IMG/VR virus record: IMGVR_UViG_3300008261_000142
Span: 1 to 57,729 of that record
From: a virus
Lineage: Duplodnaviria > Caudoviricetes
Direction: 5' to 3' (one strand)
Length of the DNA: 57,729 bases
This document shows positions 3,583 to 57,729 of the stretch, one piece after another; within the stretch, counting starts at the first letter, position 1; every line of letters starts with the position of its first letter. Position numbers and translations under genes: made by a program. Below the pieces are notes generated by a model that saw nothing but the letters and a program-made list of their open reading frames with translations, was not told the DNA's origin and searched no databases.

Positions 3583-4979
3583 AGCAGTTCTATCGCGACC
3601 TCGATCGAAGCCTCAGCGACATCCACAAGTTCGCTAGAGACATCCTCCGCTTCAAGCCCACGGATCAGCAGGCTCAGCTGTTCGACCTGATCCAGTTCGA
3701 GACCTTCGCACCCCAAGCAGACCGCAAGAAGGGCATCTGCGTCAAATCGGGCCAAGGCCCAGGCAAGACCTCTGCAGCAACCGTAGCTGCACTCTTCCGG
3801 CTCATGCAGACGCCTGGCCGGCTCGTGCTGGTCACCTCCCCAACCCGCCGGCAGGTCGAAGACATCTGGGTAGCCGAGCTCCAACGCCGCGTCAGCCAAG
3901 CACCGCCAGAGTTCCAGACGCTGCTGGATGTCCAGAAGCAGAAGATCCGCGTCGCCGGCTTCAATAAGTGGGAAATCGTGACCGCAACGTCGGTCAAGCC
4001 CGAGAACGTCCAGGGCTACCACGAGGCGGGCATGACCGTCATCGTCGACGAGGCATCCGGCATCGAACGCAAGATCTGGGGAACGCTCAAGGGCACCATC
4101 ACCGGCCCAGACAACCTCCTTGTCGCCATCGGCAACCCGAACGACCGCGACACGGAGTTCTTCGACATGTTCAACAAGGACAAGCACCTCTACCACCGCT
4201 TGACTTGGAACGCCGAAGACAGCCCGAACGTCGATCGCCGCCACATCGATCGCATGGCAGCCGAGTACGGTCGCGACAGCGACGTGTTCCGCGTGCGCGT
4301 GCTCGGTGAGTTTCCTCGAGAGAGCCCGAACGTCGTCATCCGCTACGAGGACCTGCTCTACGCTTGCCGCGAGAAGCCGTTCCTCCAAGCCTTCCAAGAG
4401 CTGGCACCGTACGACAACGGCCAGCGAAAGCAGATCGGCATCGACTTGGCCCGCTTCGGTGGCGACGAGTCGGTTGTCGTGGCGCGCTACAACTGCGCGA
4501 TGGTCGGCAAGCTGCAGTTCAGCAAGCGAGAGCCGTCAGACGTAGTAGAGGCGGCTTTCCGCTACCAGAGAGAGCTCGGCTGGGACGACGCCTCGACGGT
4601 GTACTGCGTCGACGCTGGAGGCATGGGTCAAGGCGTCCTGCACATGTTTTATGAGCAGGGAAAGCGAGTCTTTGAGTTTCACTCAAACGGCAAGAGCTTT
4701 GAGCCTCGTGTCTACAACGACGCGATCACCGAAGCGTACTTCCATCTTCGCCTGCTCACGCGCGAGCGTCGCCTGCACCTGAAGGAGGACATGAACTCCT
4801 TCCAACAGCTGGTCAGCCGGCAGTATCGCTATGATCAGGGGCTCTTTCGGCTAGAATCGAAGGACGAGTTCCTTAGGCGTGTTGGAACCGAGGAATTCAC
4901 CAGCCCAGATCGAGCAGACGCTACCGCCCTAGCTTTTTACCCCTACGCCAACGCCGGAATGAGCTCGGTGACTGCATGA
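3579..4979 (+). CDS. terL: terminase large subunit
   Basis: Walker A KSGQGPGKTS, Walker B IVDEA, GNP coupling motif, nuclease GIDLARFGGD and SPDRADA. Confidence 0.95.
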   Translation: MKQFYRDLDRSLSDIHKFARDILRFKPTDQQAQLFDLIQFETFAPQADRKKGICVKSGQGPGKTSAATVAALFRLMQTPGRLVLVTSPTRRQVEDIWVAELQRRVSQAPPEFQTLLDVQKQKIRVAGFNKWEIVTATSVKPENVQGYHEAGMTVIVDEASGIERKIWGTLKGTITGPDNLLVAIGNPNDRDTEFFDMFNKDKHLYHRLTWNAEDSPNVDRRHIDRMAAEYGRDSDVFRVRVLGEFPRESPNVVIRYEDLLYACREKPFLQAFQELAPYDNGQRKQIGIDLARFGGDESVVVARYNCAMVGKLQFSKREPSDVVEAAFRYQRELGWDDASTVYCVDAGGMGQGVLHMFYEQGKRVFEFHSNGKSFEPRVYNDAITEAYFHLRLLTRERRLHLKEDMNSFQQLVSRQYRYDQGLFRLESKDEFLRRVGTEEFTSPDRADATALAFYPYANAGMSSVTA

Positions 4980-38335: not shown

Positions 38336-40430
38336 TGTTTCCTTGGAATCTCTCGCGCAACAACTGCTGTTGACGAGCTGTGAGAAGGGTAGCTTGGGCT
38401 CCTGCACGAATCAATACTTCGCTTCCAAAAGTTGTGGGCATCGGGTTCCACGAAGCGATCAGTACCTTTCGAGGCGAGTTCATCGTCTCTCGAACGTAGA
38501 TCGCGTCGTTGAGGATGGCACCCAAGGCCATTCGATCATGGTCTGAACTAATCAGCGTGGTGATGACGACCTCATCAGCGGTCTGGCCCTTGCGGTGAGT
38601 GCGCCCGATGGCCTGCTCCATCGAGAGCTCGTTTACCGGCAGCTGCGCGAAGATCTGATCGGTCATGAACTGCAGATTCTTGCCGGTGCCGTGAGCAGCG
38701 ATCGAGCAGATCAGCACCTTCTTCTTGCACCGATCAGCCGCTCCTTCGGAGGTGAGAAAGTCGTTTGCCTGCTTTCCAGCAGGGCAGTGAACGACATCCA
38801 CGCCCGCAGCCGACAGCTTCTCGAACAGCCAATCGCCCATGACTTGGTGCCAGTACCACACGATGCCCTGATCGCGTTCCTTGGCCCAGCTGATCGCCTT
38901 CTGGATCTTGTAGTCGCAGACTCGCATCGGGACCGACTGCCGCTCAATCCGACCTTGGAAATCAGCAGACTCCTTGAGCCTCCAAGCGTCGTAGAGCACG
39001 GTGCCGACATCCCTAGAGCCGTGCTTAGCCATGCTGGAGCCGACCAGCATCGGCGTGTCCAGACCGGGGCGGTGAGGGTGCGACGAGAACCACTGCCGCA
39101 GGACCCGGTGGTACTCCTGCTGCAGGCGATGGTACTCCCTGCTACGGGCAAGAAGATCCTCGGCGAAGGCTACTGAGATGTTGCGGCTCTCGGAGACCTT
39201 CCCTGCATCAGGCCAGACCAAGGCGTTGTAGATGCCTGCCGTCAGCTCGTTGTTGCACTTCCAAACCTGCATGGCGTGATCGAGCTCGTCTCCGCTTGGA
39301 GACACCCAGTCGTTGTTTAGCCGGTCTAGAAGGCTGGTCAGGTTTGCGCCGCCTTCAGAGGCCATCCGGTCAGCTTGCAGGTTCTCGACAACAATCGAAG
39401 TGCCGAGCGCATCCGGCGGGGAGGACACGACGCCAGGCGATGTCAAAAGGCGATTCTGGAACGCATGACGGAAGCCAGGCACATCGAACTGCAGCTGAGT
39501 CGCCGGGAAGTTGTCGTTGCTCCAGTTGATCAGCGGGCGTAGCGGGCCTGCAGAAGTGCGAGGCTTGTGCCACTCTTCGGTGTTGGCTTGCTCGCTGTCC
39601 AAGGTCGCTGCCCACTCCTGCACCATGTTGGCTTCGAGAGGTACTGGAGCACCTTGGCCTAGCGACATCATCAGGAGGTGCGCGTAGTCGTTGAGCGACT
39701 TAGCAGTCATCGTTCCCGAAAGGCAGATGCACTTCGGGCGGTACTTGCGCCAGTAGGTGCGGATGCGCTTCGTGCGCGCCGAATCGCGGTTCTTCAGATG
39801 GTGCGCCTCGTCGAAGATCATCAGCTCGGGGCGGATCTTCTCCAAAAGCGTGTAGCTGTCCTGAGTGGAGAGCAGCGAGTACGGAATGATCCAGCACCCC
39901 CTGCGACCGCCTGCGAGCTCGAGCCGCCTAGCAGGGCTCTTCCCACCCATCTGGTAGAAGGAGGTCCCTAGAGGTACTCGGCGACGCGCCCAAGCGATGT
40001 CGTGGTTGACCAGCTGGCTATAGACCTGACTCGGCACGAAGAGGCAGATGCGCTGGATGCCCTGCTCGACAGCGATGCCGACGCAGCGCAGCGAAATCAG
40101 CGTCTTGCCGCCACCGACTTGAATCGGCGCGAATAGGCCACCAGTCTCGATGAAAAACTGCAGTGCCTCGACCTGCACACGCTGCAGACGGAAGCCGTCC
40201 TCGTAAGCCTGCTCTTTTACATGGACTCGTTGAAGAGCATCGACCTCGGCATCGCTGAGCGGCTCTGCGATGGGAAGAGAGCAGATGCGCCCGATCTCTG
40301 TCTGTTCTTGCGGGCGATCCTGCATGACTCGAGACACGACCCAATCCATGCCCTGAGCCGGAGGCGGCGTAGGGACAGCTTCAGACGGCGAAGAGCCTCT
40401 GGCAAGAATGGCGGCTACACGGGGATCCAT
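38325..40430 (-). CDS. SF2 (SNF2-like) helicase
   Basis: GGGKT, IFDEAH, LSGT, GKNLQ, QAIGRTHRKGQ. Confidence 0.92.
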   Translation of the reverse strand: MDPRVAAILARGSSPSEAVPTPPPAQGMDWVVSRVMQDRPQEQTEIGRICSLPIAEPLSDAEVDALQRVHVKEQAYEDGFRLQRVQVEALQFFIETGGLFAPIQVGGGKTLISLRCVGIAVEQGIQRICLFVPSQVYSQLVNHDIAWARRRVPLGTSFYQMGGKSPARRLELAGGRRGCWIIPYSLLSTQDSYTLLEKIRPELMIFDEAHHLKNRDSARTKRIRTYWRKYRPKCICLSGTMTAKSLNDYAHLLMMSLGQGAPVPLEANMVQEWAATLDSEQANTEEWHKPRTSAGPLRPLINWSNDNFPATQLQFDVPGFRHAFQNRLLTSPGVVSSPPDALGTSIVVENLQADRMASEGGANLTSLLDRLNNDWVSPSGDELDHAMQVWKCNNELTAGIYNALVWPDAGKVSESRNISVAFAEDLLARSREYHRLQQEYHRVLRQWFSSHPHRPGLDTPMLVGSSMAKHGSRDVGTVLYDAWRLKESADFQGRIERQSVPMRVCDYKIQKAISWAKERDQGIVWYWHQVMGDWLFEKLSAAGVDVVHCPAGKQANDFLTSEGAADRCKKKVLICSIAAHGTGKNLQFMTDQIFAQLPVNELSMEQAIGRTHRKGQTADEVVITTLISSDHDRMALGAILNDAIYVRETMNSPRKVLIASWNPMPTTFGSEVLIRAGAQATLLTARQQQLLRERFQGNNEQ

Positions 40431-41275
40431 TCGAACCTCCGGAGCAGCTGCTCAAACGCGACAGCCGCGCACAGGGGGACCTGAGCGTTGCCTAAGGCTT
40501 TAAGTCGGTCCACCCGTCCGGGATGCCCATCAACCACTCGACCCACCGAGGGTTCAGAAGCCCACCAACTACTTCTGCCAATTGCGGAGAGTGCCCGTTC
40601 GGCTTCCTGCCCTTGCCGCTGCGAAAGTCCCGAGCTGCCGGCGACGGCCACATCCTTACCGCGAGAGACAGCGGCGGAGTGCCCACCGAGCGTTCGTGAA
40701 ATCTGCGCTTCCAAGACTCGGCGTGCTCCGAGGAAGTCTTCTCGGAACGAGGCGTCGGCCAGAGCGCGAGCCGTCCTGTCTGGGTGCGCTCCGAGAATCC
40801 ACATACGGTCTCTCCGGTGAACGGCCCCAATACTGGCTGCGCTAAGCAGACTCCACTCCGCATCAAACCCGCTTTCGGCCAGTCCTTGGAGGACGCTGTC
40901 GAGCCCTCGATGTCGGAGGGCAGCAGCATTTTCCACGAAGACGAAGAGGGGCTCCACTGCGCGCACCACTCGCAGCATTTCGAACCAGAGCCCGCTGCGG
41001 TCTCCTGAGAGTCCCTTGCCCTCGCCAGCGAGCGAGATGTCTTGGCAGGGGAATCCCCCTGAGATGACATCGACCTTTCCTCGCCACTCGTGTCCATCAA
41101 ACGCCTTTACATCTTCGAAAATGGGAAAGCGCGGAAGGCTGCCATCATCCTGACGCGCTTTCAAGACTTGCCGGCAGTAGGGGTTGATCTCGACAGCTGC
41201 CACTGGCTCATGGCCCAGTAGCATGCTGCCCAAGATGCCGCCGCCGATTCCGGCGAACAGGTGTAGTTCACGCAC
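40415..41275 (-). CDS. C5-cytosine DNA methyltransferase, alpha polypeptide
   Basis: FAGIGG, GGFPCQD, ENA, HRRDR, LKALGNAQV; motif IX missing in this frame; GTG start inferred. Confidence 0.92.
   Translation of the reverse strand: MRELHLFAGIGGGILGSMLLGHEPVAAVEINPYCRQVLKARQDDGSLPRFPIFEDVKAFDGHEWRGKVDVISGGFPCQDISLAGEGKGLSGDRSGLWFEMLRVVRAVEPLFVFVENAAALRHRGLDSVLQGLAESGFDAEWSLLSAASIGAVHRRDRMWILGAHPDRTARALADASFREDFLGARRVLEAQISRTLGGHSAAVSRGKDVAVAGSSGLSQRQGQEAERALSAIGRSSWWASEPSVGRVVDGHPGRVDRLKALGNAQVPLCAAVAFEQLLRRFEWIPV
40492..41100 (-). CDS. overprinted methyltransferase beta polypeptide (motif IX/TRD)
   Basis: Alternative frame inside alpha, with WPTP/WPSP repeats and LNPRWVEWLMGIPDGWT. Confidence 0.8.
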   Translation of the reverse strand: MMDTSGEERSMSSQGDSPAKTSRSLARARDSQETAAGSGSKCCEWCAQWSPSSSSWKMLLPSDIEGSTASSKDWPKAGLMRSGVCLAQPVLGPFTGETVCGFSERTQTGRLALWPTPRSEKTSSEHAESWKRRFHERSVGTPPLSLAVRMWPSPAARDFRSGKGRKPNGHSPQLAEVVGGLLNPRWVEWLMGIPDGWTDLKP

Positions 41276-51351: not shown

Positions 51352-51910
51352 TTACTCCTTGTTGGTGAGGTTCTTGATGATCGCTGCTGCCAGCCGCTCG
51401 TAGCTCATCTCTTCGAGCATGAGCCGTGCGAGGTCGTTGAGGTCGATGTTCTCGGCGGCCTTGTCGACGATCTCGCTTACGTCGACGTTTTCGGTGAGCT
51501 GGTCGATGTCGACGGCGTCGACAACACGACTCTCGATGTCGGAGGTGTCCAGGTTGCTGACAACCTCGTCGACGCTCTGTGGATGCCAGGATCTTGTCGA
51601 GAGCTTCGGATGCCTTGGCCTTGATGGCTGAGGCTTCCTCGTCACCGACACTCATCGACTCTTCGACGATCGATTCGATCGTTGCCGAGTTGAGCTTGCT
51701 GAGGGCCTTGGCAAGCAAGGCCCATGGGTTGGCTGCAGCCGCGACGCGCTGTCGGTAGGCCGAGCCCTTCTTGATCGCGCCTGCGATGCGGATGGTGGTG
51801 TCGACCACCATCGTCGTGTTCTCAGGTAGCTCGAGCGACAGGCTCTTGTAGAGCTTATCGTCGATCACCTTGGCCGTTGCGATCTTCGCTGCGGTTTCGT
51901 GGTTGATCAT
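51352..51910 (-). pseudogene. out-of-frame junction of two gene fragments (or a frameshifted gene)
   Basis: Protein-like sequence switches frame near 51575. Confidence 0.5.
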
Positions 51911-52230
51911 AGGTAGTGGAAGTTGCGGAAGAGTTTTCCGGCGCGTGAGATGGCATCCTTGCCATGGAACTCTCGCACCCAGAAGTACTCGTCGACCCAG
52001 ACAGGGCCGACTCCGTCGATGAAGGCGATGTCGTCGCGCTCGAACATGTCTTCGGTCTGCTCTTCAGCCGGGACAGGGTCGCAGAAACGGGCGTGGTACT
52101 CTTCCCACGCTTCTTCTACGGTGCCGCCGACCTGCAGAAGCATCGGGCCGAACTGGCAGCCTACTACGTAGGCCAGGTCGGTTCGGAAACGGCTGGAGAT
52201 CTGGAGGTCTTTGTTCAAGAGTTTTGGCAT
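51907..52230 (-). CDS. hypothetical protein
   Basis: TAATG-coupled. Confidence 0.7.
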   Translation of the reverse strand: MPKLLNKDLQISSRFRTDLAYVVGCQFGPMLLQVGGTVEEAWEEYHARFCDPVPAEEQTEDMFERDDIAFIDGVGPVWVDEYFWVREFHGKDAISRAGKLFRNFHYL

Positions 52231-52457
52231 TACTGCACCTTGAGGAAGGCTGTCTTTTGCAGCCGGCTGTAGCGGATGCGGATCGTCTTCATGCCGATCT
52301 GGGCAAGCTCATCGATGTTGATGTACTTGCCGGAAGGCGTCATGAAGTCCAGCTTCTTGTCGAGGTCCGCCTGGGCTTGCTTGATGGTCGTGTAGTCACG
52401 ACCGTAGGCAGGCACCAGAGGCTCGAGACCACGAAGGTCGATTTCGTAGATGCTCAT
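52230..52457 (-). CDS. hypothetical protein directly downstream of HHR1
   Basis: LVPAYGRDY..DF..YINI; ATG abuts the ribozyme. Confidence 0.75.
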   Translation of the reverse strand: MSIYEIDLRGLEPLVPAYGRDYTTIKQAQADLDKKLDFMTPSGKYINIDELAQIGMKTIRIRYSRLQKTAFLKVQ

Positions 52458-52510
52458 GCGGTTTCGCCCTGCTGGGGCTCATCAGGCACCGAGCTATACG
52501 GTGCGACCGC
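52458..52510 (-). ncRNA. type III hammerhead ribozyme HHR1
   Basis: GCGGUC^GCACCG-UAUAGCU-CGGUGC CUGAUGA GCCC-CAGCA-GGGC GAAACCGC. Confidence 0.95.
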
Positions 52511-52753
52511 TCAGGAGGACTTCTCAAGCTGATCGGCAAGGTTGGCGATCAGGCCAGAGACGCCCATCAAGTGGCTGGCGTACACAGGATCGTGCTCGTC
52601 GTGTGTGTTGGCCTCGTATTCGATGTGTTGTGCCAGCTCGATGAGTTGCTTGACCGCTACGTCAAGCTCCTCCGTGTTCAGGTACTTGCGGCTGAGGTGG
52701 AGCTGGAAGAACAAGCCCGATGGCTGCCCTGAAGGCGTCGATTGGTCGGTCAT
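52511..52753 (-). CDS. hypothetical protein
   Basis: Stop abuts HHR1; start uncertain. Confidence 0.5.
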   Translation of the reverse strand: MTDQSTPSGQPSGLFFQLHLSRKYLNTEELDVAVKQLIELAQHIEYEANTHDEHDPVYASHLMGVSGLIANLADQLEKSS

Positions 52754-52880
52754 AGAGTTCTGTGGTTGAAGGGAACTGGCTCTTGCGAGCCACGGTGATG
52801 ACACCGCGCCACTTGTCGCGGTCTGGGATCACCGCGACTCGGTAGTTGCCGATGGTGGCTTTGTAGACTAGCTCGGGCAT
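52662..52880 (-). CDS. hypothetical protein
   Basis: GGAGA RBS; MPELVYKA. Confidence 0.5.
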   Translation of the reverse strand: MPELVYKATIGNYRVAVIPDRDKWRGVITVARKSQFPSTTELYDRPIDAFRAAIGLVLPAPPQPQVPEHGGA

Positions 52881-53098
52881 TCGAATGTCTCTCCGGTGAC
52901 GAAGTCTTGCGGATGGTCTCCGCAGTTGTCGCAGTAGAAGCACTCTTCAAAGTCTGCGAGCGAGCATGCTTCCATGAAGCCGGATTGCCAGCCGTCCCTG
53001 CGGACGAGCTGGAGATCGACGTACATGAAGGCCTTTTGCCGCAACACGCTGTTGCAGCTAGCACAAAGGTAGTGCTGAACTCGGTTTTGTGGGTCCAT
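52868..53098 (-). CDS. Zn-finger hypothetical protein
   Basis: CASC..CDNC; TGATG-coupled. Confidence 0.6.
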   Translation of the reverse strand: MDPQNRVQHYLCASCNSVLRQKAFMYVDLQLVRRDGWQSGFMEACSLADFEECFYCDNCGDHPQDFVTGETFECPS

Positions 53099-53262
53099 CA
53101 GGGAGTCCTGAGAACGATCTCGCAGATCGGTTCGTGGAGCCTGCAGATCCATAGGTAGCCGTGCTGTCCTTCCTTGGAGTTCTCGGCCTCTTCGACCGAG
53201 TCGAATGGTCCGACGAAGTCGAAGCCTGAGCCGATGTCTCCCATCACTAGTAGGTACTTCAT
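53098..53262 (-). CDS. 54-aa hypothetical protein (below the ORF-track cutoff)
   Basis: MKYLLVMGDIGSGFDFVGPFDSVEEAE..; ATGA and TGATG overlaps. Confidence 0.65.
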   Translation of the reverse strand: MKYLLVMGDIGSGFDFVGPFDSVEEAENSKEGQHGYLWICRLHEPICEIVLRTP

Positions 53263-53951
53263 GCGTGTTGTAGTTCATCGTGGTCGATGAACTCGATGGG
53301 GAGTTCGACGGACCAGCAGAGACCGCAAGTCAGACACGACTCGGTCTTGCCGGTTTGCTCGGGGCAGGTCACAGCACCGGGGACGGATCCCTGCGTGGTT
53401 GCGACGATCTGACCCTTGATGCGCTTGTTGGTGCTGAAGCGCACCCACCAGCGGTCAGGGAAGTCTTTTCGCATGTCGGTGAGGCACTTCCAGCCCTCAC
53501 GGGCGGTGTAGCCGTAGACATGCAGGTTGGTGTGTCGAACGATCAGCTTGCGCCACATCTTGACGTAGCCGTCGGAGTAGAAGTCGCCGAGGATGTGCAG
53601 GCGCACAGCGAAGCCGTGCGGATGCATCCGTGCGAGCTCGGCAACTTCGCTTTGGATCTTGGCCTCGAGTTCGGGGCCATGTTGGAACCGATGTGCGAAC
53701 GGCATTGAGTTGCCGTAGCACTCGGCCCATCTGAGGCAGGTAGACGGGCAGGTTGCTCGCTCTTCGAGCGTGATGCTGAAGAGTGGGAACCCGCGCCACC
53801 GACCCTTGAGGATGGTGCCCTTGCCCTTGCCGAGCTTGCTGTTGTTCGCAACCGGCTTGAGGACATCGCGGCTGTCATCGACAGTGCGACGGCCCTTCGG
53901 ATGGATCGTGCGAGCTTCGGCCAGAGCAGGGTTGCCTGGCTTGAGTTTCAT
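53259..53951 (-). CDS. GP88-family (radical-SAM-like) protein
   Basis: NSKLG, TCPSTC..CYG, RLHILGDFYS, YGYT, CP..C..CGLC. Confidence 0.8.
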   Translation of the reverse strand: MKLKPGNPALAEARTIHPKGRRTVDDSRDVLKPVANNSKLGKGKGTILKGRWRGFPLFSITLEERATCPSTCLRWAECYGNSMPFAHRFQHGPELEAKIQSEVAELARMHPHGFAVRLHILGDFYSDGYVKMWRKLIVRHTNLHVYGYTAREGWKCLTDMRKDFPDRWWVRFSTNKRIKGQIVATTQGSVPGAVTCPEQTGKTESCLTCGLCWSVELPIEFIDHDELQHA

Positions 53952-54004
53952 GCGGTTTCGCCCTGCTGGGGCTCATCAGTCGGCGCGATATACGCCGAGA
54001 CCGC
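53952..54004 (-). ncRNA. type III hammerhead ribozyme HHR2
   Basis: GCGGUC^UCGGCG-UAUAUCG-CGCCGA CUGAUGA GCCC-CAGCA-GGGC GAAACCGC. Confidence 0.95.
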
Positions 54005-54211
54005 TCAGTCATCACGCTCGATGCCAGTGAACTCTACAGATTCACGATCGAGCTCTTCGGATATGCTGACTGTTTCGGGGAAGATCATCTCTTCATGGAT
54101 GATCTTTCTTGCCTGTTCAAGAGTCAGGTTCGGGTTGTCGTGCTCGAAAGAATATTCGAGCTCTTCCCACACCCTGACTACGCGGCTGCCGTAGACGGTG
54201 TACTTGGGCAT
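54005..54211 (-). CDS. acidic hypothetical protein
   Basis: MPKYTVYG..; stop abuts HHR2. Confidence 0.7.
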   Translation of the reverse strand: MPKYTVYGSRVVRVWEELEYSFEHDNPNLTLEQARKIIHEEMIFPETVSISEELDRESVEFTGIERDD

Positions 54212-54420
54212 CAGCAGGCATCCTCCTCGGGCTGTCGTGAAGTGCTGTGGCGAGCGTGGCAATCGCGGAAGAACTGCGAGGACTTGCGGTAGATGTCCCT
54301 GAGCAGATCGACCGATTCCTTGTCTGCGATCAGGTACATCGTTTCCAGAGCAGCCCAGGCTGCGTTGGACAGAGCGATGCTCTGCTGGTACGCGATGGCG
54401 TACTTGGTCTTGTTTTCCAT
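54211..54420 (-). CDS. hypothetical protein downstream of HHR3
   Basis: MENKTKY..; TGATG-coupled to the next gene. Confidence 0.65.
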   Translation of the reverse strand: MENKTKYAIAYQQSIALSNAAWAALETMYLIADKESVDLLRDIYRKSSQFFRDCHARHSTSRQPEEDAC

Positions 54421-54422
54421 GT

Positions 54423-54475
54423 TCGGTTTCGCCCTTCTGGGGCTCATCAGCCGGCGGACTTTACGCCGGGACCGA
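54423..54475 (-). ncRNA. type III hammerhead ribozyme HHR3
   Basis: UCGGUC^CCGGCG-UAAAGUC-CGCCGG CUGAUGA GCCC-CAGAA-GGGC GAAACCGA. Confidence 0.95.
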
Positions 54476-54580
54476 GCACTGGTCCGCGCCGCAGTTGCGG
54501 CAACGGAACCAGTGCAGGTTGCCGAGCTGCCCTAGGAAGAACAGTTCGCCGTAGCAGTGCTTGCAGGTGTCAGGAGTCAT
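54461..54580 (-). CDS. 39-aa Zn-ribbon peptide overlapping HHR3
   Basis: MTPDTCKHCYGELFFLGQLGNLHWFRCRNCGADQCSVPA*. Confidence 0.7.
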   Translation of the reverse strand: MTPDTCKHCYGELFFLGQLGNLHWFRCRNCGADQCSVPA

Positions 54581-54887
54581 GTCGCACTGCTACGTGGACG
54601 TACTTGGCACCTGGCCGTACTTGCTCGCCCTTCCACACCACGGTGTGCGGGGAGTAGTTGTACGAATCGGTCATGCCATCGAACGACCCGTAGGAGTAGT
54701 CGTTCATCAGGTCACGCCAGAACTCCAGCGGCCTGCTCCGATAGGTCTCGAGGTCCACTTCGATGTAGACGCTCGAACCCATGGAGTAGGTGCTGGAACG
54801 GACGGACAGCGGCTTGATGCCGCTGTCCTTGAGATACGACCGGATCGCCTTGGCGGTCTCAGTCGTACTGAGCATTGTAACAGTCAT
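54570..54887 (-). CDS. LPD29-like domain protein
   Basis: ETAKAIR..LSVRS..YS.G.S..FDGMTDSY..GAKYV; GAGGA RBS. Confidence 0.7.
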   Translation of the reverse strand: MTVTMLSTTETAKAIRSYLKDSGIKPLSVRSSTYSMGSSVYIEVDLETYRSRPLEFWRDLMNDYSYGSFDGMTDSYNYSPHTVVWKGEQVRPGAKYVHVAVRHDS

Positions 54888-55086
54888 GTTCCTCTTCGAT
54901 GATGTCCACCAGACCGGCGATGAGCAGTTGCTCGTTGCCGTAGACCGCGTTCGCACCGCAGGTCTCGCACTTGTACTTTCGAGCATCGGGCTCAACTGCG
55001 AACGCTTGCGCGCCGCAGTTGATGCAATGCCCTTCGTTGCTGTCGAACAGTTCGTGTTCGTACAGCTTGAAGCGTTTCTTGATCAT
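54859..55086 (-). CDS. Zn-finger hypothetical protein
   Basis: GHCINCG..VEPDARKYKCETCG..VYG. Confidence 0.8.
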   Translation of the reverse strand: MIKKRFKLYEHELFDSNEGHCINCGAQAFAVEPDARKYKCETCGANAVYGNEQLLIAGLVDIIEEEHDCYNAQYD

Positions 55087-55094
55087 GCTGTTGA

Positions 55095-55763
55095 TCAGTA
55101 GAACAACTCCCTGATCGCATCGGACGGAGTGTCCGACTCGAGGTGGAGTCTGTAGTTGAGCGGATCGTTGATCCCGGCAGGCGGGAACGTGATCAGCTTG
55201 AAGCTCACCGTACGATCGACCGGGTACATCCAGGTTTGGTGAAGCGGCGGTCGTTCGTACTCGGGCAAGTTTGCCGGCTCGCTGGCTCGGACCACTTTGC
55301 GGTAGCCGATCTTGGCGAGCGGGTAGAGGTGCTCGGGAATGATCAGGGACAGCAACAGAATCCTGCTGCCAGCCTTGACGAACCAGTTGAGCGTGGCCGG
55401 GAGGATCGGGTCATTCACTTCGATGTAGACCGGACCAACCCTTTCGGTGGGCCGGACCATCGAGGTGTACAACTCACCGAGACCCCCGATCGGGCACAGC
55501 AAGCTGTGCTGGAACAGCTGGATTGGCTCAGCCGGCAGTCGCGTTTCGGCGATCGCCAGCATGTGCGAAGGCTGAAGATTCCGCCCGAAGCCGACGGTGA
55601 ACTGGTAGCCGCAACCCTTGTAGCCCGAACCAATGTTCGCGCTCGTGGTCAGCCACTCAGGACAGCCGGCATCGATCAGATCGTCAGACACTTCGATGCG
55701 CTGATCGAGCTGCTCCCTTTCGCGCGCTTGCCGAGCAAGCAGATCGCGCATCAGGTGATGCAT
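55095..55763 (-). CDS. hypothetical protein
   Basis: AGGAG RBS. Confidence 0.7.
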   Translation of the reverse strand: MHHLMRDLLARQAREREQLDQRIEVSDDLIDAGCPEWLTTSANIGSGYKGCGYQFTVGFGRNLQPSHMLAIAETRLPAEPIQLFQHSLLCPIGGLGELYTSMVRPTERVGPVYIEVNDPILPATLNWFVKAGSRILLLSLIIPEHLYPLAKIGYRKVVRASEPANLPEYERPPLHQTWMYPVDRTVSFKLITFPPAGINDPLNYRLHLESDTPSDAIRELFY

Positions 55764-55821
55764 AGGTACTCCTAGTGTAGCGAGCCGCCCAAAGTAGGCG
55801 GCTCCCTTGCTAGGCGCACCC

Positions 55822-56196
55822 CTAGAAGAGCATCAGTTGACCCGGATGGTCAACCGGTCGCACGACCCACTCTAGGTGAGCCGTGGTTGCCCAGTCGATC
55901 GAGTGTGCCAGGTCGGCAATCTCGTGCAACAAACCGCACTGCTTGCAGCGGTCTCTTGCGACACGGATTTCTGACAGCTTCTCAGCCAGCTGGTCAGAAC
56001 CGTCTTGATTCAGTTGCCAGACGACGGCGGTCTCGCCGCTGTCGAGCACTATTGTTCGGTATTCGAGTTTGCTCCACTTGCCGATCTCGTCAGCTTGTGA
56101 CGAATAGCCGGTGGGAAAAACTAGAAATGCCGAACAATAATACGAGCCGTGGAAGGCGTGACGCCATTCCAGGTCGAGGATTATTTTTTCGGTCAT
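55822..56196 (-). CDS. hypothetical protein
   Basis: ORF ending QLMLF (beta-clamp-binding-like motif). Confidence 0.6.
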   Translation of the reverse strand: MTEKIILDLEWRHAFHGSYYCSAFLVFPTGYSSQADEIGKWSKLEYRTIVLDSGETAVVWQLNQDGSDQLAEKLSEIRVARDRCKQCGLLHEIADLAHSIDWATTAHLEWVVRPVDHPGQLMLF

Positions 56197-56858
56197 GAGA
56201 GTACGGTGGTACCGTAGCAGTCTCCATGCGAGTCGTTTTTGGCGAGCTCGCAGGATCGTCTAGGATCGACGATGGGGTAGGGGGGGCTATGGTGGGCCGT
56301 CCCTGTTGCCGATCGTCGATCCTAGCCAATGCCAGGCCGTCTACAAGACAGCCTTATGGAGGGATTCGAGTCGGTTGTTGCTGTTCGCAGAGGATTATTT
56401 GCCTTTGCGGGCAGAAACCGTTTTTCATTGCCGTTCGGTAAGCCCTTGTGAAACCTGGCTTTGTGAGAGTCAGGTCGAAAAAGGGCACTTTTGGCAAAAA
56501 TCCGTTACGCGAGGAGACATTTTTTGTGGAGAAATCCTCACATTTCCTCTTTTCAGTCGGAAATGTTTGTGCCTTTTACGGCAACCCCACCAAAAACATC
56601 TCCCGCGTAAGGGGGATTTGGGCACCTCTTATTTTCATTTTCGAAGAAATCGATGCAAACCCCACGGTTTACAAGGACTTACGACGAGCAATAAAAAAGG
56701 GGTACTTCCAAAAATCGATCGGCCTTTGTTTACAAGGACTTACGTCAAAAGTAGGGAAATCTTCTTTGCCCGAAAAGGTAAATGAAACCCTGGGCAATAA
56801 CTAACTTCCAGTACTCTCGGTTCGGTCCCCGTTAGGGTCCTCGATTTGCGAAAGAGTA

Positions 56859-56901
56859 GCTTTCGGAAAAACTAAGTATGTCACCTAGTTTTTCCGAAAG
56901 C
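56859..56901. repeat. perfect 16-bp inverted repeat with 11-bp spacer
   Basis: GCTTTCGGAAAAACTA-N11-TAGTTTTTCCGAAAGC. Confidence 0.9.
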
Positions 56902-56926
56902 CGCTCCTTTTAGAGCGGTCGATCAG

Positions 56927-57136
56927 TCAGTCCTTCGGATTGACAGCGAACAATCGCTGGTCAACGTGGTCCATGAGGGACAGGATCTTGTCCTGCGCGT
57001 TGAAGAGGTCCTTGCGGATTTGGGAGACCTGGTCCACGAAATCGGAAGTCGACGGGCATGGCGTGACCATGATCGTCAGCTTCTGGATCGTGACCAGGTC
57101 GTCGTGCAGCATTTGCTGCAGTCGGATCGGGGTCAT
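56927..57136 (-). CDS. hypothetical protein downstream of HHR4
   Basis: AAGGAG RBS; MTPIRLQQ. Confidence 0.7.
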   Translation of the reverse strand: MTPIRLQQMLHDDLVTIQKLTIMVTPCPSTSDFVDQVSQIRKDLFNAQDKILSLMDHVDQRLFAVNPKD

Positions 57137-57150
57137 GTCTCTGTCTCCTT

Positions 57151-57205
57151 GCGGTTTCGTCCTTGGCTGGGACTCGTCAGTACGTGGCACCACCACGTAG
57201 ACCGC
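57151..57205 (-). ncRNA. type III hammerhead ribozyme HHR4
   Basis: GCGGUC^UACGUGG-UGGUG-CCACGUA CUGACGA GUCC-CAGCCAA-GGAC GAAACCGC. Confidence 0.93.
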
Positions 57206-57213
57206 GCTCGGCA

Positions 57214-57486
57214 TCAGTTCGCGGCGAGCGGAGCTGCGACGGCGATGTGCGCCTGGATGGCTTCGACAATCGACGGCAGGACATCCGCCTCGGTGCGCTT
57301 CACATAACGCTCAACGTCGCGCTCTTCAGCGTGGAACGTCTCGACGATGCGAACACGCCAACAGTCCTGGCTGCGCGCACACGACGCGAACGCGCAGAAG
57401 GTGCGGCTGTCGCTCGTCACAGCGTGCACGATGATCGTCGTGCCGTTGTAGAAATTGCTTTGCTTGATGCTGGTGATGTAGGACAT
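57214..57486 (-). CDS. hypothetical protein (likely first early gene)
   Basis: GGAGA RBS; MSYITSIK. Confidence 0.65.
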   Translation of the reverse strand: MSYITSIKQSNFYNGTTIIVHAVTSDSRTFCAFASCARSQDCWRVRIVETFHAEERDVERYVKRTEADVLPSIVEAIQAHIAVAAPLAAN

Positions 57487-57508
57487 ATCTCTCTCCGACG
57501 GCGAGGAC

Positions 57509-57552
57509 CAGTCCTCGGACCAGTCCTCCGTGCAGTCCTCGCGGCAGTCCTC
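57509..57552. repeat. CAGTCCTC x4 at 12-bp period
   Basis: Copies at 57509, 57521, 57533, 57545. Confidence 0.85.
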
Positions 57553-57615
57553 CTGGGCGAAGTGCCCAGGCGGATGTCGCAAATGTGTCGCAAAAATGTC
57601 ACAGATTTGTAACAT

Positions 57616-57729
57616 TTTTGTATTCCGGAAATCGAAGCCTCGATTTTCGGAATGTACCAGGTTTGTAACATTTCTGTCATTCCGGAAATCGATGCTTCGA
57701 TTTTCGAAATGTACCAGGTTTGTAACATT
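57616..57729. repeat. terminal direct repeat, right copy
   Basis: Identical to 1-114. Confidence 0.95.

What the first reader, a model, noticed from the sequence alone, without database searches (positions are those of the whole stretch)
52458..57205. Four hammerhead ribozymes punctuate the phage early operon
Seen: four elements on the sense (-) strand, at 52458-52510, 53952-54004, 54423-54475 and 57151-57205. Each has a complete type III hammerhead: GUC triplet, stem I, CUGAnGA, stem II, GAAA and stem III. Stem I differs in every copy yet always pairs perfectly, and stems II and III also covary, so selection acts on RNA structure. Loop I starts with U and loop II ends with A in all four. Known: that U/A loop-loop contact is typical of fast natural hammerheads, and hammerheads are known from some phages. 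Inference: the phage self-cleaves its early polycistronic mRNA into separate messages, a protein-free analogue of RNase III processing of T7 early RNA.
Basis: partly seen in the sequence, partly recalled or inferred. Interest (0 to 1): 0.95.

Follow-up and report, generated by a model that had tools for sequence, protein, structure and literature searches.

The report
Four hammerhead ribozymes between phage genes
Four genuine self-cutting hammerhead RNAs sit between small genes at the start of an uncultured lake phage genome, an arrangement already described for phages in 2011, so this is a clean new example and not a new kind of system.

Summary
Four complete type III hammerheads lie on the minus (sense) strand at the stated coordinates. 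All have intact cores and GUC cleavage sites, and all fold into the canonical three-way junction. Rfam RF00008 scores 46.7, 43.0, 37.2 and 22.2 bits, all under the 48.5-bit cut-off. Nothing similar occurs elsewhere in this complete 57.7-kb phage genome.

HH3 and HH4 fill their intergenic gaps exactly (TGA, 53-nt ribozyme, ATG, no Shine-Dalgarno). HH2 cuts two codons before the stop of a 39-aa zinc-ribbon ORF. HH1 has an ordinary Shine-Dalgarno after it.

Self-cleavage of the early transcript is the best reading but is inferred: no RNA data exist. The idea is not new. Perreault et al. 2011 described clustered hammerheads flanking genes in prophages, proposed this processing role and showed cleavage. 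One metagenome contig found here also carries four such ribozymes, one per small gene. Earlier notes of this scan report hammerhead arrays in other phages.

Two points go beyond that work: the spacer-less, SD-less junctions, and a natural strain variant in which gene E1 plus HH1 is replaced by 9 letters. Verdict: new member of a known kind, with moderate-to-low interest.

The parts
57151..57205 (-). HH1, type III hammerhead. Core has C at N7, 7-8 bp stem I, 7-nt loop II. It starts 8 nt after the E1 stop, and an AAGGAG Shine-Dalgarno and the E2 ATG (57136) follow it. Predicted cut 57200/57199.
   Evidence: 71.4 bits; RF00008 22.2 bits, partial
54423..54475 (-). HH2, type III hammerhead. Predicted cut 54470/54469 lies inside ORF E7, two codons before its TAA, which sits in loop I. 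The E8 ATG follows 2 nt after stem III. The AUG inside the core (54447) is in frame with E8.
   Evidence: 46.7 bits; 81.7 bits
53952..54004 (-). HH3, type III hammerhead that fills the whole gap between the E9 stop (TGA 54007-54005) and the E10 ATG (53951). Predicted cut 53999/53998.
   Evidence: 43.0 bits; 86.2 bits
52458..52510 (-). HH4, type III hammerhead that fills the whole gap between the stop TGA 52513-52511 and the E14 ATG (52457). It is identical to HH3 except for 8 positions, all in stem-loop I. Predicted cut 52505/52504.
   Evidence: 37.2 bits; 83.6 bits
57214..57486 (-). E1, 90-aa ORF upstream of HH1; no Pfam or PHROG match.
56927..57136 (-). E2, 69-aa ORF downstream of HH1, with its own Shine-Dalgarno.
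54461..54580 (-). E7, 39-aa ORF with CxxC...CxxC (zinc-ribbon-like). Its last codons and stop are encoded by HH2 (stem III, cleavage site, stem I, loop I).
54211..54420 (-). E8, 69-aa ORF directly after HH2; no Shine-Dalgarno.
54005..54211 (-). E9, 68-aa ORF with a GAGGAGGA Shine-Dalgarno; its stop abuts HH3.
53259..53951 (-). E10, 230-aa GP88-like protein (PF17338, phrog_2554). Its ATG abuts stem III of HH3. The start is confirmed by homologues aligned from residue 1.
52230..52457 (-). E14, 75-aa ORF whose ATG abuts stem III of HH4.
57139..57504 (-). 366-nt module (E1 ribosome site, E1, HH1, E2 Shine-Dalgarno). Contigs of 2 of the 4 other freshwater runs laid have 9 other letters in its place.
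   Evidence: tables 5 and 5c
57651..57680 (-). Sigma-70-like promoter match (9 of 12, TG extension) inside 57-nt tandem and inverted repeats at the head of the minus-strand gene train.
56859..56901 (-). 20-bp hairpin just after E2, terminator-like but without a clean U run. It could separate HH1 from HH2-HH4 transcriptionally.

Best explanation
These are four active cis-cleaving type III hammerhead ribozymes in the sense strand of the small-gene (probably early) region of a complete, uncultured freshwater siphovirus-like phage.

As RNA polymerase passes each one, the roughly 53-nt element folds into the three-way junction. A loop I / loop II contact stabilises it, and it cuts itself after GUC.

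Each cut leaves an upstream message ending in a 2',3'-cyclic phosphate a few nucleotides past its stop codon. At HH2 the cut falls two codons before the stop. The downstream message starts with a 5'-hydroxyl, and the ribozyme body (stem I hairpin first) forms its leader. The long transcript is thus divided into units E1 | E2...E7 | E8-E9 | E10...E13 | E14... whose stability and translation no longer depend on their neighbours.

Shown here: sequence, fold, covariation, and position relative to the ORFs.
Inferred: the cleavage itself, early timing, co-transcription, and the consequences for stability and translation.
For: All core positions that Perreault et al. require are present in all four copies: C3 U4 G5 A6 N7 G8 A9, G12 A13 A14, A15.1-U16.1, H17, and pairs next to the core (criteria: PMC3088659 methods passage; sequences).

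Statistics and fold:
- Core pattern: 4 hits against 0.35 expected.
- RF00008 E-values: 5e-8, 6e-7, 2.5e-5 and 0.46.
- The MFE is the canonical fold for 4 of 4.
- With 60-150 nt of native flank, the hammerhead fold holds 15-57% of the ensemble for HH1-HH3.
- Covariation: 8 of 16 pairs change on both sides in the window. In 32 distinct relatives, 11 of 15 pairs do so and 98.9% of cells pair.

The loops fit the tertiary motif of Dufour 2009: 5' U of loop 1, 3' A of loop 2, pyrimidine at L1.6.

All four lie on the coding strand, at gene boundaries only, and none lies elsewhere in the genome.

The same layout recurs in other contigs. L100 has 4 hammerheads in 1.14 kb, each before one small ORF; L107 and L109 have 3 each.

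Published tests of comparable prophage arrays showed cleavage at every ribozyme in vitro, and in E. coli for the A. tumefaciens triple (PMC3088659 passages).
Against: - There is no RNA-level evidence of any kind for this phage.
- All four score below Rfam's gathering cut-off, and HH1 matches only partly.
- In native context HH4's fold probability is low at several flank lengths: 0.002-0.06 at 30-100 nt and 0.29 at 150 nt. HH2's is 0.003 at 30 nt.
- 'Early' and 'one polycistronic RNA' are inferred. A 20-bp hairpin and 730 nt of non-coding DNA lie between HH1 and HH2.
- The hammerheads are not conserved with the neighbouring gene. None was found within 4 kb of the E10 homologue in 80 of 80 IMG/VR loci, nor in 50 of 50 whole records searched with RF00008, nor in L005/L006. 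No syntenic conservation therefore supports a fixed role.
- A cut at HH2 would leave E7 without a stop codon, which is awkward for a pure processing role.
Confidence: 0.75

Rival explanations
1. Translation connectors. At HH2-HH4 the ribozyme is more than a cutter: it is the whole translation-initiation region of the next gene. These genes have no Shine-Dalgarno and no stop/start overlap. Initiation would depend on the cleaved 5'-OH ribozyme leader or on the ribozyme fold. Ribosomes finishing the upstream gene would compete kinetically with ribozyme folding; at HH2 the outcome would decide between normal termination and a non-stop message. This does not exclude cleavage; it adds a role.
For: HH3 and HH4 have zero spacer on both sides (TGA|ribozyme|ATG), and HH2 has a 2-nt spacer.

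Other early genes of the phage have either a clear Shine-Dalgarno (E1, E2, E4, E6, E9, E13a) or a stop/start overlap (upstream strings). The three genes after HH2-HH4 have neither.

The E10 start is fixed by homologues aligned from residue 1.

In 16 of the 20 other hammerheads printed, a purine-rich Shine-Dalgarno-like stretch follows or overlaps stem III, so the window's junctions are an extreme form.

In eukaryotic RNA viruses a hammerhead can span a whole intergenic UTR, and its catalytic activity is needed for cap-independent translation (PMC13725137 passages).
Against: Predicted accessibility of the start region does not change consistently on cleavage. It rises for HH1 and HH3 and stays the same for HH2 and HH4.

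L107 also has short SD-less spacers, so the feature may simply reflect a host that does not need a Shine-Dalgarno. The nearest E10 homologues look leaderless.

There is no experimental precedent in bacteria that I found.
Confidence: 0.2
2. Cassette boundaries. The hammerheads travel with individual accessory genes as portable 'gene plus ribozyme' modules. They insulate an inserted gene from its neighbours, so their distribution reflects gene gain and loss more than an operon-wide processing programme.
For: In 2 of 4 other freshwater runs laid (X2, X3, different studies), a contig joins 57138 to 57505 with 9 other letters. This removes exactly E1, HH1 and the E2 Shine-Dalgarno. In X2 the form with HH1 is also present (record 7).

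HH1 is the most divergent copy.

HH3 and HH4 share identical flanks, including the stop and start codons, and differ only in stem-loop I.

Hammerheads are absent from all other phages that carry the E10 gene.

Perreault et al. note that the flanked genes are not constant.
Against: The evidence is a single indel, seen in low-depth contigs (about 5x). Direction (gain or loss) is unknown. The idea does not say what the ribozyme does for the cassette beyond cleavage.
Confidence: 0.3
3. Circular RNAs. The fragments between two hammerheads (HH2-HH3, 471 nt with E8-E9; HH3-HH4, 1494 nt) carry a 5'-OH and a 2',3'-cyclic phosphate. A host RtcB-type ligase, or the ribozyme's reverse reaction, joins them into circular mRNAs.
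For: The end chemistry expected of hammerhead products suits RtcB (established knowledge). Perreault et al. raised the possibility.
Against: Perreault et al. looked for spliced or circular products and found none (data not shown in their paper). No RNA ligase or RtcB family appears among the 45 window ORFs scanned with Pfam at E <= 1e-4.
Confidence: 0.05
4. Inactive look-alikes or plain structural hairpins (for example exonuclease barriers or RNase targets) that merely resemble hammerheads.
For: All four score below the Rfam gathering cut-off. Activity is untested.
Against: Every catalytic core position is intact in 4 of 4. The loop-loop motif is kept. Compensatory changes preserve all three helices. 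Chance expectation is 0.35 for the core pattern alone.
Confidence: 0.03

Closest known systems
Clustered cis hammerhead ribozymes flanking single genes or short gene blocks in prophages (Perreault et al. 2011, PLoS Comput Biol, PMC3088659; passages read)
   Same: Several complete hammerheads, co-oriented with the genes, sit at boundaries of small genes of mostly unknown function in phage DNA. That paper proposed the same role (long phage transcripts processed into operon- or gene-length mRNAs). Comparable arrays cleaved in vitro, and one cleaved in E. coli.
   Different: This is a complete DTR-bounded genome of an uncultured freshwater phage with no integrase match among the 45 ORFs scanned, not a prophage. 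All four are type III. Three junctions have no spacer and no Shine-Dalgarno, and one cut site lies inside an ORF. I could not see that paper's figures or supplements, so such junctions may be shown there.
Rfam RF00008, Hammerhead ribozyme type III
   Same: Core, three helices, open stem III, closed loops I and II, and a loop-loop U/A motif.
   Different: Scores of 46.7, 43.0, 37.2 and 22.2 bits are under the 48.5-bit gathering score. Relative to the model, loop I is longer (a 6-nt insert), loop II is shorter and stem III is only 5 bp.
Hammerheads in UTRs of linear RNA viruses that enable translation initiation (NAR 2026, PMC13725137; passages read)
   Same: A hammerhead spans essentially a whole short intergenic region just before the next ORF.
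   Different: Those are type I ribozymes of eukaryotic RNA viruses that cut 7 nt before the start codon, and they concern cap-independent translation. Here a type III ribozyme of a DNA phage cuts at its 5' side, so about 48 nt of ribozyme remain as leader.
RiboJ and similar synthetic ribozyme insulators (Clifton et al. 2018, PMC6206723: title and start of abstract seen in the listing; that RiboJ derives from a type III hammerhead is recalled)
   Same: Works alike: a self-cleaving ribozyme placed before a cistron removes upstream RNA context and leaves a defined 5'-OH leader.
   Different: RiboJ is an engineered part with an added hairpin that exposes a Shine-Dalgarno. The phage elements are natural, and three of them have no Shine-Dalgarno.
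RNase III processing of the phage T7 early transcript (recalled, not checked in any call)
   Same: Works alike: intercistronic cuts turn one early polycistronic RNA into separate messages.
   Different: T7 uses a host protein enzyme acting on double-stranded hairpins. Here cutting would be RNA-catalysed and the end chemistry differs.

Membership tests
Hammerhead ribozyme, type III (Rfam RF00008) | Catalytic core C3 U4 G5 A6 N7 G8 A9 and G12 A13 A14 | tested here: met
   4 of 4 copies carry CUGA[U/C]GA and GAAA
Hammerhead ribozyme, type III (Rfam RF00008) | Cleavage triplet N-U-H, with U16.1 paired to A15.1 | tested here: met
   GUC in 4 of 4. The U-A pair is invariant in 4 of 4 and in 32 of 32 relatives.
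Hammerhead ribozyme, type III (Rfam RF00008) | Three helices around the core, with standard pairs next to the core (1.1-2.1, 10.1-11.1) | tested here: met
   The MFE gives the three-way junction in 4 of 4; 62 of 64 cells pair
Hammerhead ribozyme, type III (Rfam RF00008) | Type III topology: stem III open, stems I and II closed by loops | tested here: met
Hammerhead ribozyme, type III (Rfam RF00008) | Score at or above Rfam's curated gathering cut-off (a database criterion, not a property of the RNA) | tested here: not met
   46.7, 43.0, 37.2 and 22.2 bits against 48.5. The E-values of three copies are 5e-8 to 2.5e-5.
Hammerhead ribozyme, type III (Rfam RF00008) | Loop I / loop II tertiary motif of fast natural hammerheads (5' U of loop 1, 3' A of loop 2, pyrimidine at L1.6) | tested here: met
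   Sequence motif only. HH2-HH4 have heptaloops with U1 and Y6, and loop 2 ends in A. HH1 has U1 and the 3' A but a different loop length. The motif is defined in PMC2632901.
Hammerhead ribozyme, type III (Rfam RF00008) | Site-specific self-cleavage | not testable with these tools
   Needs in vitro transcription or RNA-end mapping
Clustered phage/prophage hammerhead arrays (Perreault et al. 2011) | Two or more hammerheads close together, co-oriented with the genes and flanking single genes or short gene blocks in phage DNA | tested here: met
   Four copies within 4.75 kb, all on the coding strand at ORF boundaries. Phage identity comes from capsid, portal, tail and polymerase matches.
Clustered phage/prophage hammerhead arrays (Perreault et al. 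2011) | All ribozymes lie on one transcript that is cut at each of them | not testable with these tools
   No RNA data. A hairpin and a 730-nt gap between HH1 and HH2 leave co-transcription open.

The most novel reading that the evidence does not exclude
In this phage the hammerhead has become a complete intercistronic module that also serves as the translation-initiation region. At HH3 and HH4 the stop codon of one gene and the start codon of the next flank the terminal base pair of stem III, with no spacer and no Shine-Dalgarno. Expression of the downstream gene would depend on ribozyme cleavage or on the ribozyme fold. It would be set by a race between the terminating ribosome and ribozyme folding. 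At HH2 the same race would decide whether the zinc-ribbon ORF ends normally or becomes a non-stop message. This would be a bacterial counterpart of the ribozyme-dependent translation recently reported for eukaryotic RNA viruses.
Probability: 0.15. Interest if true: 0.7.

Novelty: new member of a known kind. Interest (0 to 1): 0.35.

Why it matters
Reviews still call the biological role of bacterial and phage hammerheads largely elusive (PMC6765202 and PMC6155905, passages). This genome does not change the picture, but it is a compact, complete example with three useful handles:
- junctions where the ribozyme is the entire intergenic region and the next gene has no Shine-Dalgarno;
- a cut site inside an ORF;
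- a natural strain pair with and without one gene-plus-ribozyme module.

Each can be tested with reporter constructs without culturing the phage. The elements also show that Rfam's default cut-off misses clear phage hammerheads: 0 of 4 are listed at the gathering score.

Tried and rejected
**Searches that gave nothing**
- Rfam at gathering score over the whole window: 0 matches. The hammerheads appear only in E-value mode.
- Rfam E-value mode on 1-50100: nothing at E <= 0.05, so no second ribozyme class of the library was detected.
- tRNA/tmRNA: none.

**RNA evidence**
- No RNA holder is listed for this stretch, so no ends could be mapped.
- The one read-laying run used DNA contigs only.
- Contigs that cover HH1, HH2 and HH4 in other runs are nearly identical to the window (0-1 other letters), so they give no test of covariation. 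HH3 is only partly covered by the listed pieces.

**Relatives**
- The DNA polymerase found no close relative in IMG/VR. The best isolate match is 26% identical.
- E10 homologues are many (2101). The 80 IMG/VR loci fetched share no other early gene with the window and carry no hammerhead (only 50 of the 80 records were searched with RF00008). A survey at syntenic boundaries was therefore not possible.
- The exact stem-II subtype was not found in genome contigs, so there is no host clue from prophages.

**Ideas tested and left open**
- 'Cleavage unmasks the start codon': predicted unpaired probabilities change for HH1 and HH3 but not for HH2 and HH4. Inconclusive.
- A promoter inside the ribozyme giving a leaderless message: by eye I saw no -10-like hexamer before the ATGs of HH3 or HH4.
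- Phage-encoded RNA ligase for circularisation: none among 45 ORFs.
- Pseudoknot between loops I and II: a 3-bp match is possible only in HH4, so I dropped it in favour of the U/A motif.
- Supplements and figures of Perreault 2011 could not be seen. They may show junctions like these.

Full report
**What the window is.** The window is one whole IMG/VR virus record of 57,729 nt. It has a 114-nt direct terminal repeat and is rated 100% complete.
- It encodes a major capsid protein, portal, XkdF-type protease, major tail protein, family A DNA polymerase, helicases, a primase-like protein, a PD-(D/E)XK nuclease, a C5 methylase and sigma-like proteins.
- No tRNA gene is present.
- The closest isolated phage shares only 26% identity over the polymerase. 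Arthrobacter and Microbacterium phages account for 39 of the 66 records hit.
- Near-identical DNA occurs in lake and freshwater metagenomes of several studies.
- Most genes run on the minus strand: a repeat-rich region at 57.5-57.7 kb, then small ORFs, then replication genes, then virion genes.

**Check of the observation.**
- A pattern for just the core plus GAAAC hits 4 times against 0.35 expected; 0 of 100 shuffles reach 4.
- Rfam's type III model scores them 46.7, 43.0, 37.2 and 22.2 bits (E 5e-8, 6e-7, 2.5e-5, 0.46). All are below the 48.5-bit gathering score, which is why the default scan lists nothing.
- A covariance model built from the four (R1), run with filters off, finds them at 71-86 bits. 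Nothing else in the window exceeds 12.6 bits.
- The rest of the window has no Rfam match at E <= 0.05.
- Each element's MFE structure is the canonical three-way junction.
- Within the window 62 of 64 cells pair and 8 of 16 pairs change on both sides. Six of those are in stem I and one each in stems II and III. The claim that stems II and III covary is therefore thin inside the window.
- The wider family makes it solid (next paragraph but one).
- The GUC triplets end at 57200, 54470, 53999 and 52505, as predicted.

**Anatomy relative to the genes.**
- HH3 and HH4 each fill their intergenic gap exactly. The stop TGA is followed at once by the first base of stem III, and the last base of stem III is followed at once by ATG.
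- The ATG after HH3 starts E10, a GP88-like protein (PF17338, phrog_2554). That start is fixed by homologues that align from residue 1.
- HH3 and HH4 are identical, flanking stop and start codons included, except for 8 positions. All 8 lie in the 19-nt stem-loop I, and 6 of them form three compensatory pairs.
- HH2 overlaps the 3' end of a 39-aa CxxC...CxxC ORF (E7). GUC is its codon 37 and its TAA lies in loop I, so a cut would leave E7 without a stop codon. The E8 ATG follows stem III after 2 nt.
- The AUG inside the HH2 core is in frame with E8.
- HH1 is the odd one out. It has C at N7 and longer loops, begins 8 nt after the E1 stop, and is followed by a normal AAGGAG and then the E2 ATG.
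- The other early genes either have a recognisable Shine-Dalgarno or overlap the preceding stop. The genes after HH2, HH3 and HH4 have neither.

**The wider family.** Exact-pattern scans for the stem-II subtype shared by HH2-HH4 found 3 IMG/VR contigs, 18 metagenome contigs and no reference genome.
- R1 then found 38 hammerheads in these 22 sources, 32 of them distinct.
- On that model-fitted alignment 98.9% of 461 cells pair, and 11 of 15 pairs change on both sides. With the partner slid by 1-3 columns, only 25-45% of cells pair.
- Arrays are common among these contigs. L100 has four type III hammerheads within 1.14 kb, each before a single 78-99-aa ORF, with a tyrosine integrase 2.5 kb away. 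L107 and L109 have three each. L094 has two, as do L093 and L105, which look like copies of each other.
- In most of them a purine-rich Shine-Dalgarno-like stretch follows or overlaps the 3' strand of stem III, and sometimes a GC-rich hairpin precedes the ribozyme.
- The window's spacer-less, SD-less junctions are thus the extreme end of a known layout. L107 comes close, with 4-6-nt SD-less spacers.

**No syntenic conservation.**
- E10 has 2101 homologues at E <= 1e-10.
- The 80 best IMG/VR loci have no R1 hit within 4 kb. The 50 whole records I searched have no RF00008 match at E <= 0.001.
- Two further loci, L005 and L006, also have none.
- None of these loci shares any other early gene with the window.
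- The hammerheads are therefore a trait of this lineage and not of the gene they precede.

**Population data.** Contigs from four other freshwater runs were laid on 51900-57729.
- Pieces covering HH1, HH2 and HH4 carry 0-1 differences, so they are uninformative about covariation.
- In 2 of the 4 runs (X2 and X3, different studies) a contig joins 57138 to 57505 with 9 other letters in between. This removes exactly the E1 ribosome site, E1, HH1 and the E2 Shine-Dalgarno (366 nt).
- X2 also holds the form with HH1.
- This fits a portable gene-plus-ribozyme module, but depth is only about 5x and the direction of change is unknown.

**Mechanism.**
- Shown: intact cores, canonical folds, compensatory change, sense-strand placement at ORF boundaries only, and a loop motif that matches the tertiary contact of fast natural hammerheads. 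[quoted passage not shown]
- Inferred from established hammerhead chemistry: a cut after GUC gives an upstream RNA with a 2',3'-cyclic phosphate. That RNA ends 6 nt past the stop at HH3 and HH4, and 14 nt past it at HH1. The downstream RNA starts with 5'-OH and the stem I hairpin.
- With 60-150 nt of native flank, the hammerhead fold takes 15-57% of the predicted ensemble for HH1-HH3. HH4 gets less (0.2-29%). These figures ignore tertiary contacts and co-transcriptional folding.
- A promoter-like site sits in the 57-nt repeats at 57651-57680.
- A 20-bp hairpin lies after E2, followed by 730 nt without a convincing ORF. HH1 may therefore lie on a different transcript from HH2-HH4.
- Predicted start-codon accessibility does not change consistently on cleavage.
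- No RNA ligase was detected among 45 ORFs.

**Literature.**
- Perreault et al. 2011 (PMC3088659, passages) state that multiple hammerheads often flank individual genes or short gene blocks in prophages. They say this implies processing of long phage transcripts. Three tandem arrangements cleaved in vitro, and the A. tumefaciens triple cleaved in E. coli. They did not detect spliced or circular products.
- de la Pena et al. 2017 (PMC6155905) repeat that hammerheads lie close together and flank small non-conserved ORFs, with a persistent link to phages.
- Weinberg et al. 2019 (PMC6765202) call the bacterial roles largely elusive and mention polycistronic processing as a suggestion.
- A 2026 paper on RNA viruses (PMC13725137) shows a hammerhead spanning a whole intergenic UTR, and ribozyme-dependent translation in eukaryotes. 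This is the nearest precedent for the boldest reading here.
- My searches listed no paper, by title or abstract start, on SD-less, spacer-less hammerhead junctions in phages. I read passages of only four of the listed papers and could not see supplements.
- Earlier notes of this scan report hammerhead arrays in early operons of other phages. I did not test them.

**Verdict.** This is a new member of a known kind. The details worth a specialist's second look are the zero-spacer junctions, the cut inside E7 and the E1-HH1 indel.

Noticed in passing
window 57139-57504: Contigs from 2 of 4 other freshwater runs replace this 366-nt stretch (E1 ribosome site, E1, HH1, E2 Shine-Dalgarno) with 9 other letters. 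One run holds both forms.
   Followed up: partly
window 56197-56926: A 730-nt stretch with no convincing ORF and lower GC lies between E2 and E3. It has a 20-bp hairpin at 56859-56901, a 17-nt exact direct repeat at 56667-56683 and 56728-56744, and a 22-nt inverted repeat at 56255-56330. It could hold promoters, an origin or a non-coding RNA.
   Followed up: no
window 57509-57729 (and 1-114): Regulatory-looking repeats at the head of the minus-strand genes: two 57-nt tandem units with a 33-nt inverted repeat, a sigma-70-like promoter match, and three to four 12-nt repeats carrying a GAGGACTG-like motif just before E1. The last 114 nt equal the first 114.
   Followed up: partly
L013-L017, about 40 nt before position 4001: The five closest IMG/VR homologues of E10 (55-61% identity) have -35- and -10-like hexamers ending 6-7 nt before the ATG and no Shine-Dalgarno, which looks like leaderless transcription. 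Together with the Arthrobacter and Microbacterium phage hits of the polymerase, this hints at an actinobacterial-type host. This is not proven.
   Followed up: no
L100 5281-6418: A metagenome contig has four type III hammerheads in 1.14 kb, one before each of four small ORFs (one ORF is a DUF7417 protein), with a tyrosine integrase 2.5 kb downstream.
   Followed up: partly
window 55764-55821: The only other 50-60-nt gap between early genes (E3 to E4) holds an 8-bp GC-rich hairpin followed by AGGAG and the ATG. It has no hammerhead core (read by eye).
   Followed up: no
window 54447: The AUG formed by A6-U7-G8 of the HH2 core is in frame with E8 (27 nt upstream of its ATG). In HH3 and HH4 the core AUG is out of frame, and HH1 has C at N7 and so no AUG.
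   Followed up: no
Pelagibacter phages HTVC142P (39646-39672) and HTVC031P (41002-41028): A BLAST match to the core, stem II and GAAAC part of HH3 lies in an unannotated stretch near each genome end (E 0.03 and 1). These are possible hammerheads in cultured pelagiphages.
   Followed up: no
L095, L097, L110: Two hammerhead-like hits 171-175 nt apart lie inside GT-rich simple repeats with 46-48% GC. They look like satellite-type tandem hammerheads and not like phage elements.
   Followed up: no
window 54859-55086, 54461-54580, 52868-53098: Three small early ORFs (E5, E7, E12) each carry two CxxC pairs, so the early region is rich in mini zinc-ribbon proteins.
   Followed up: no
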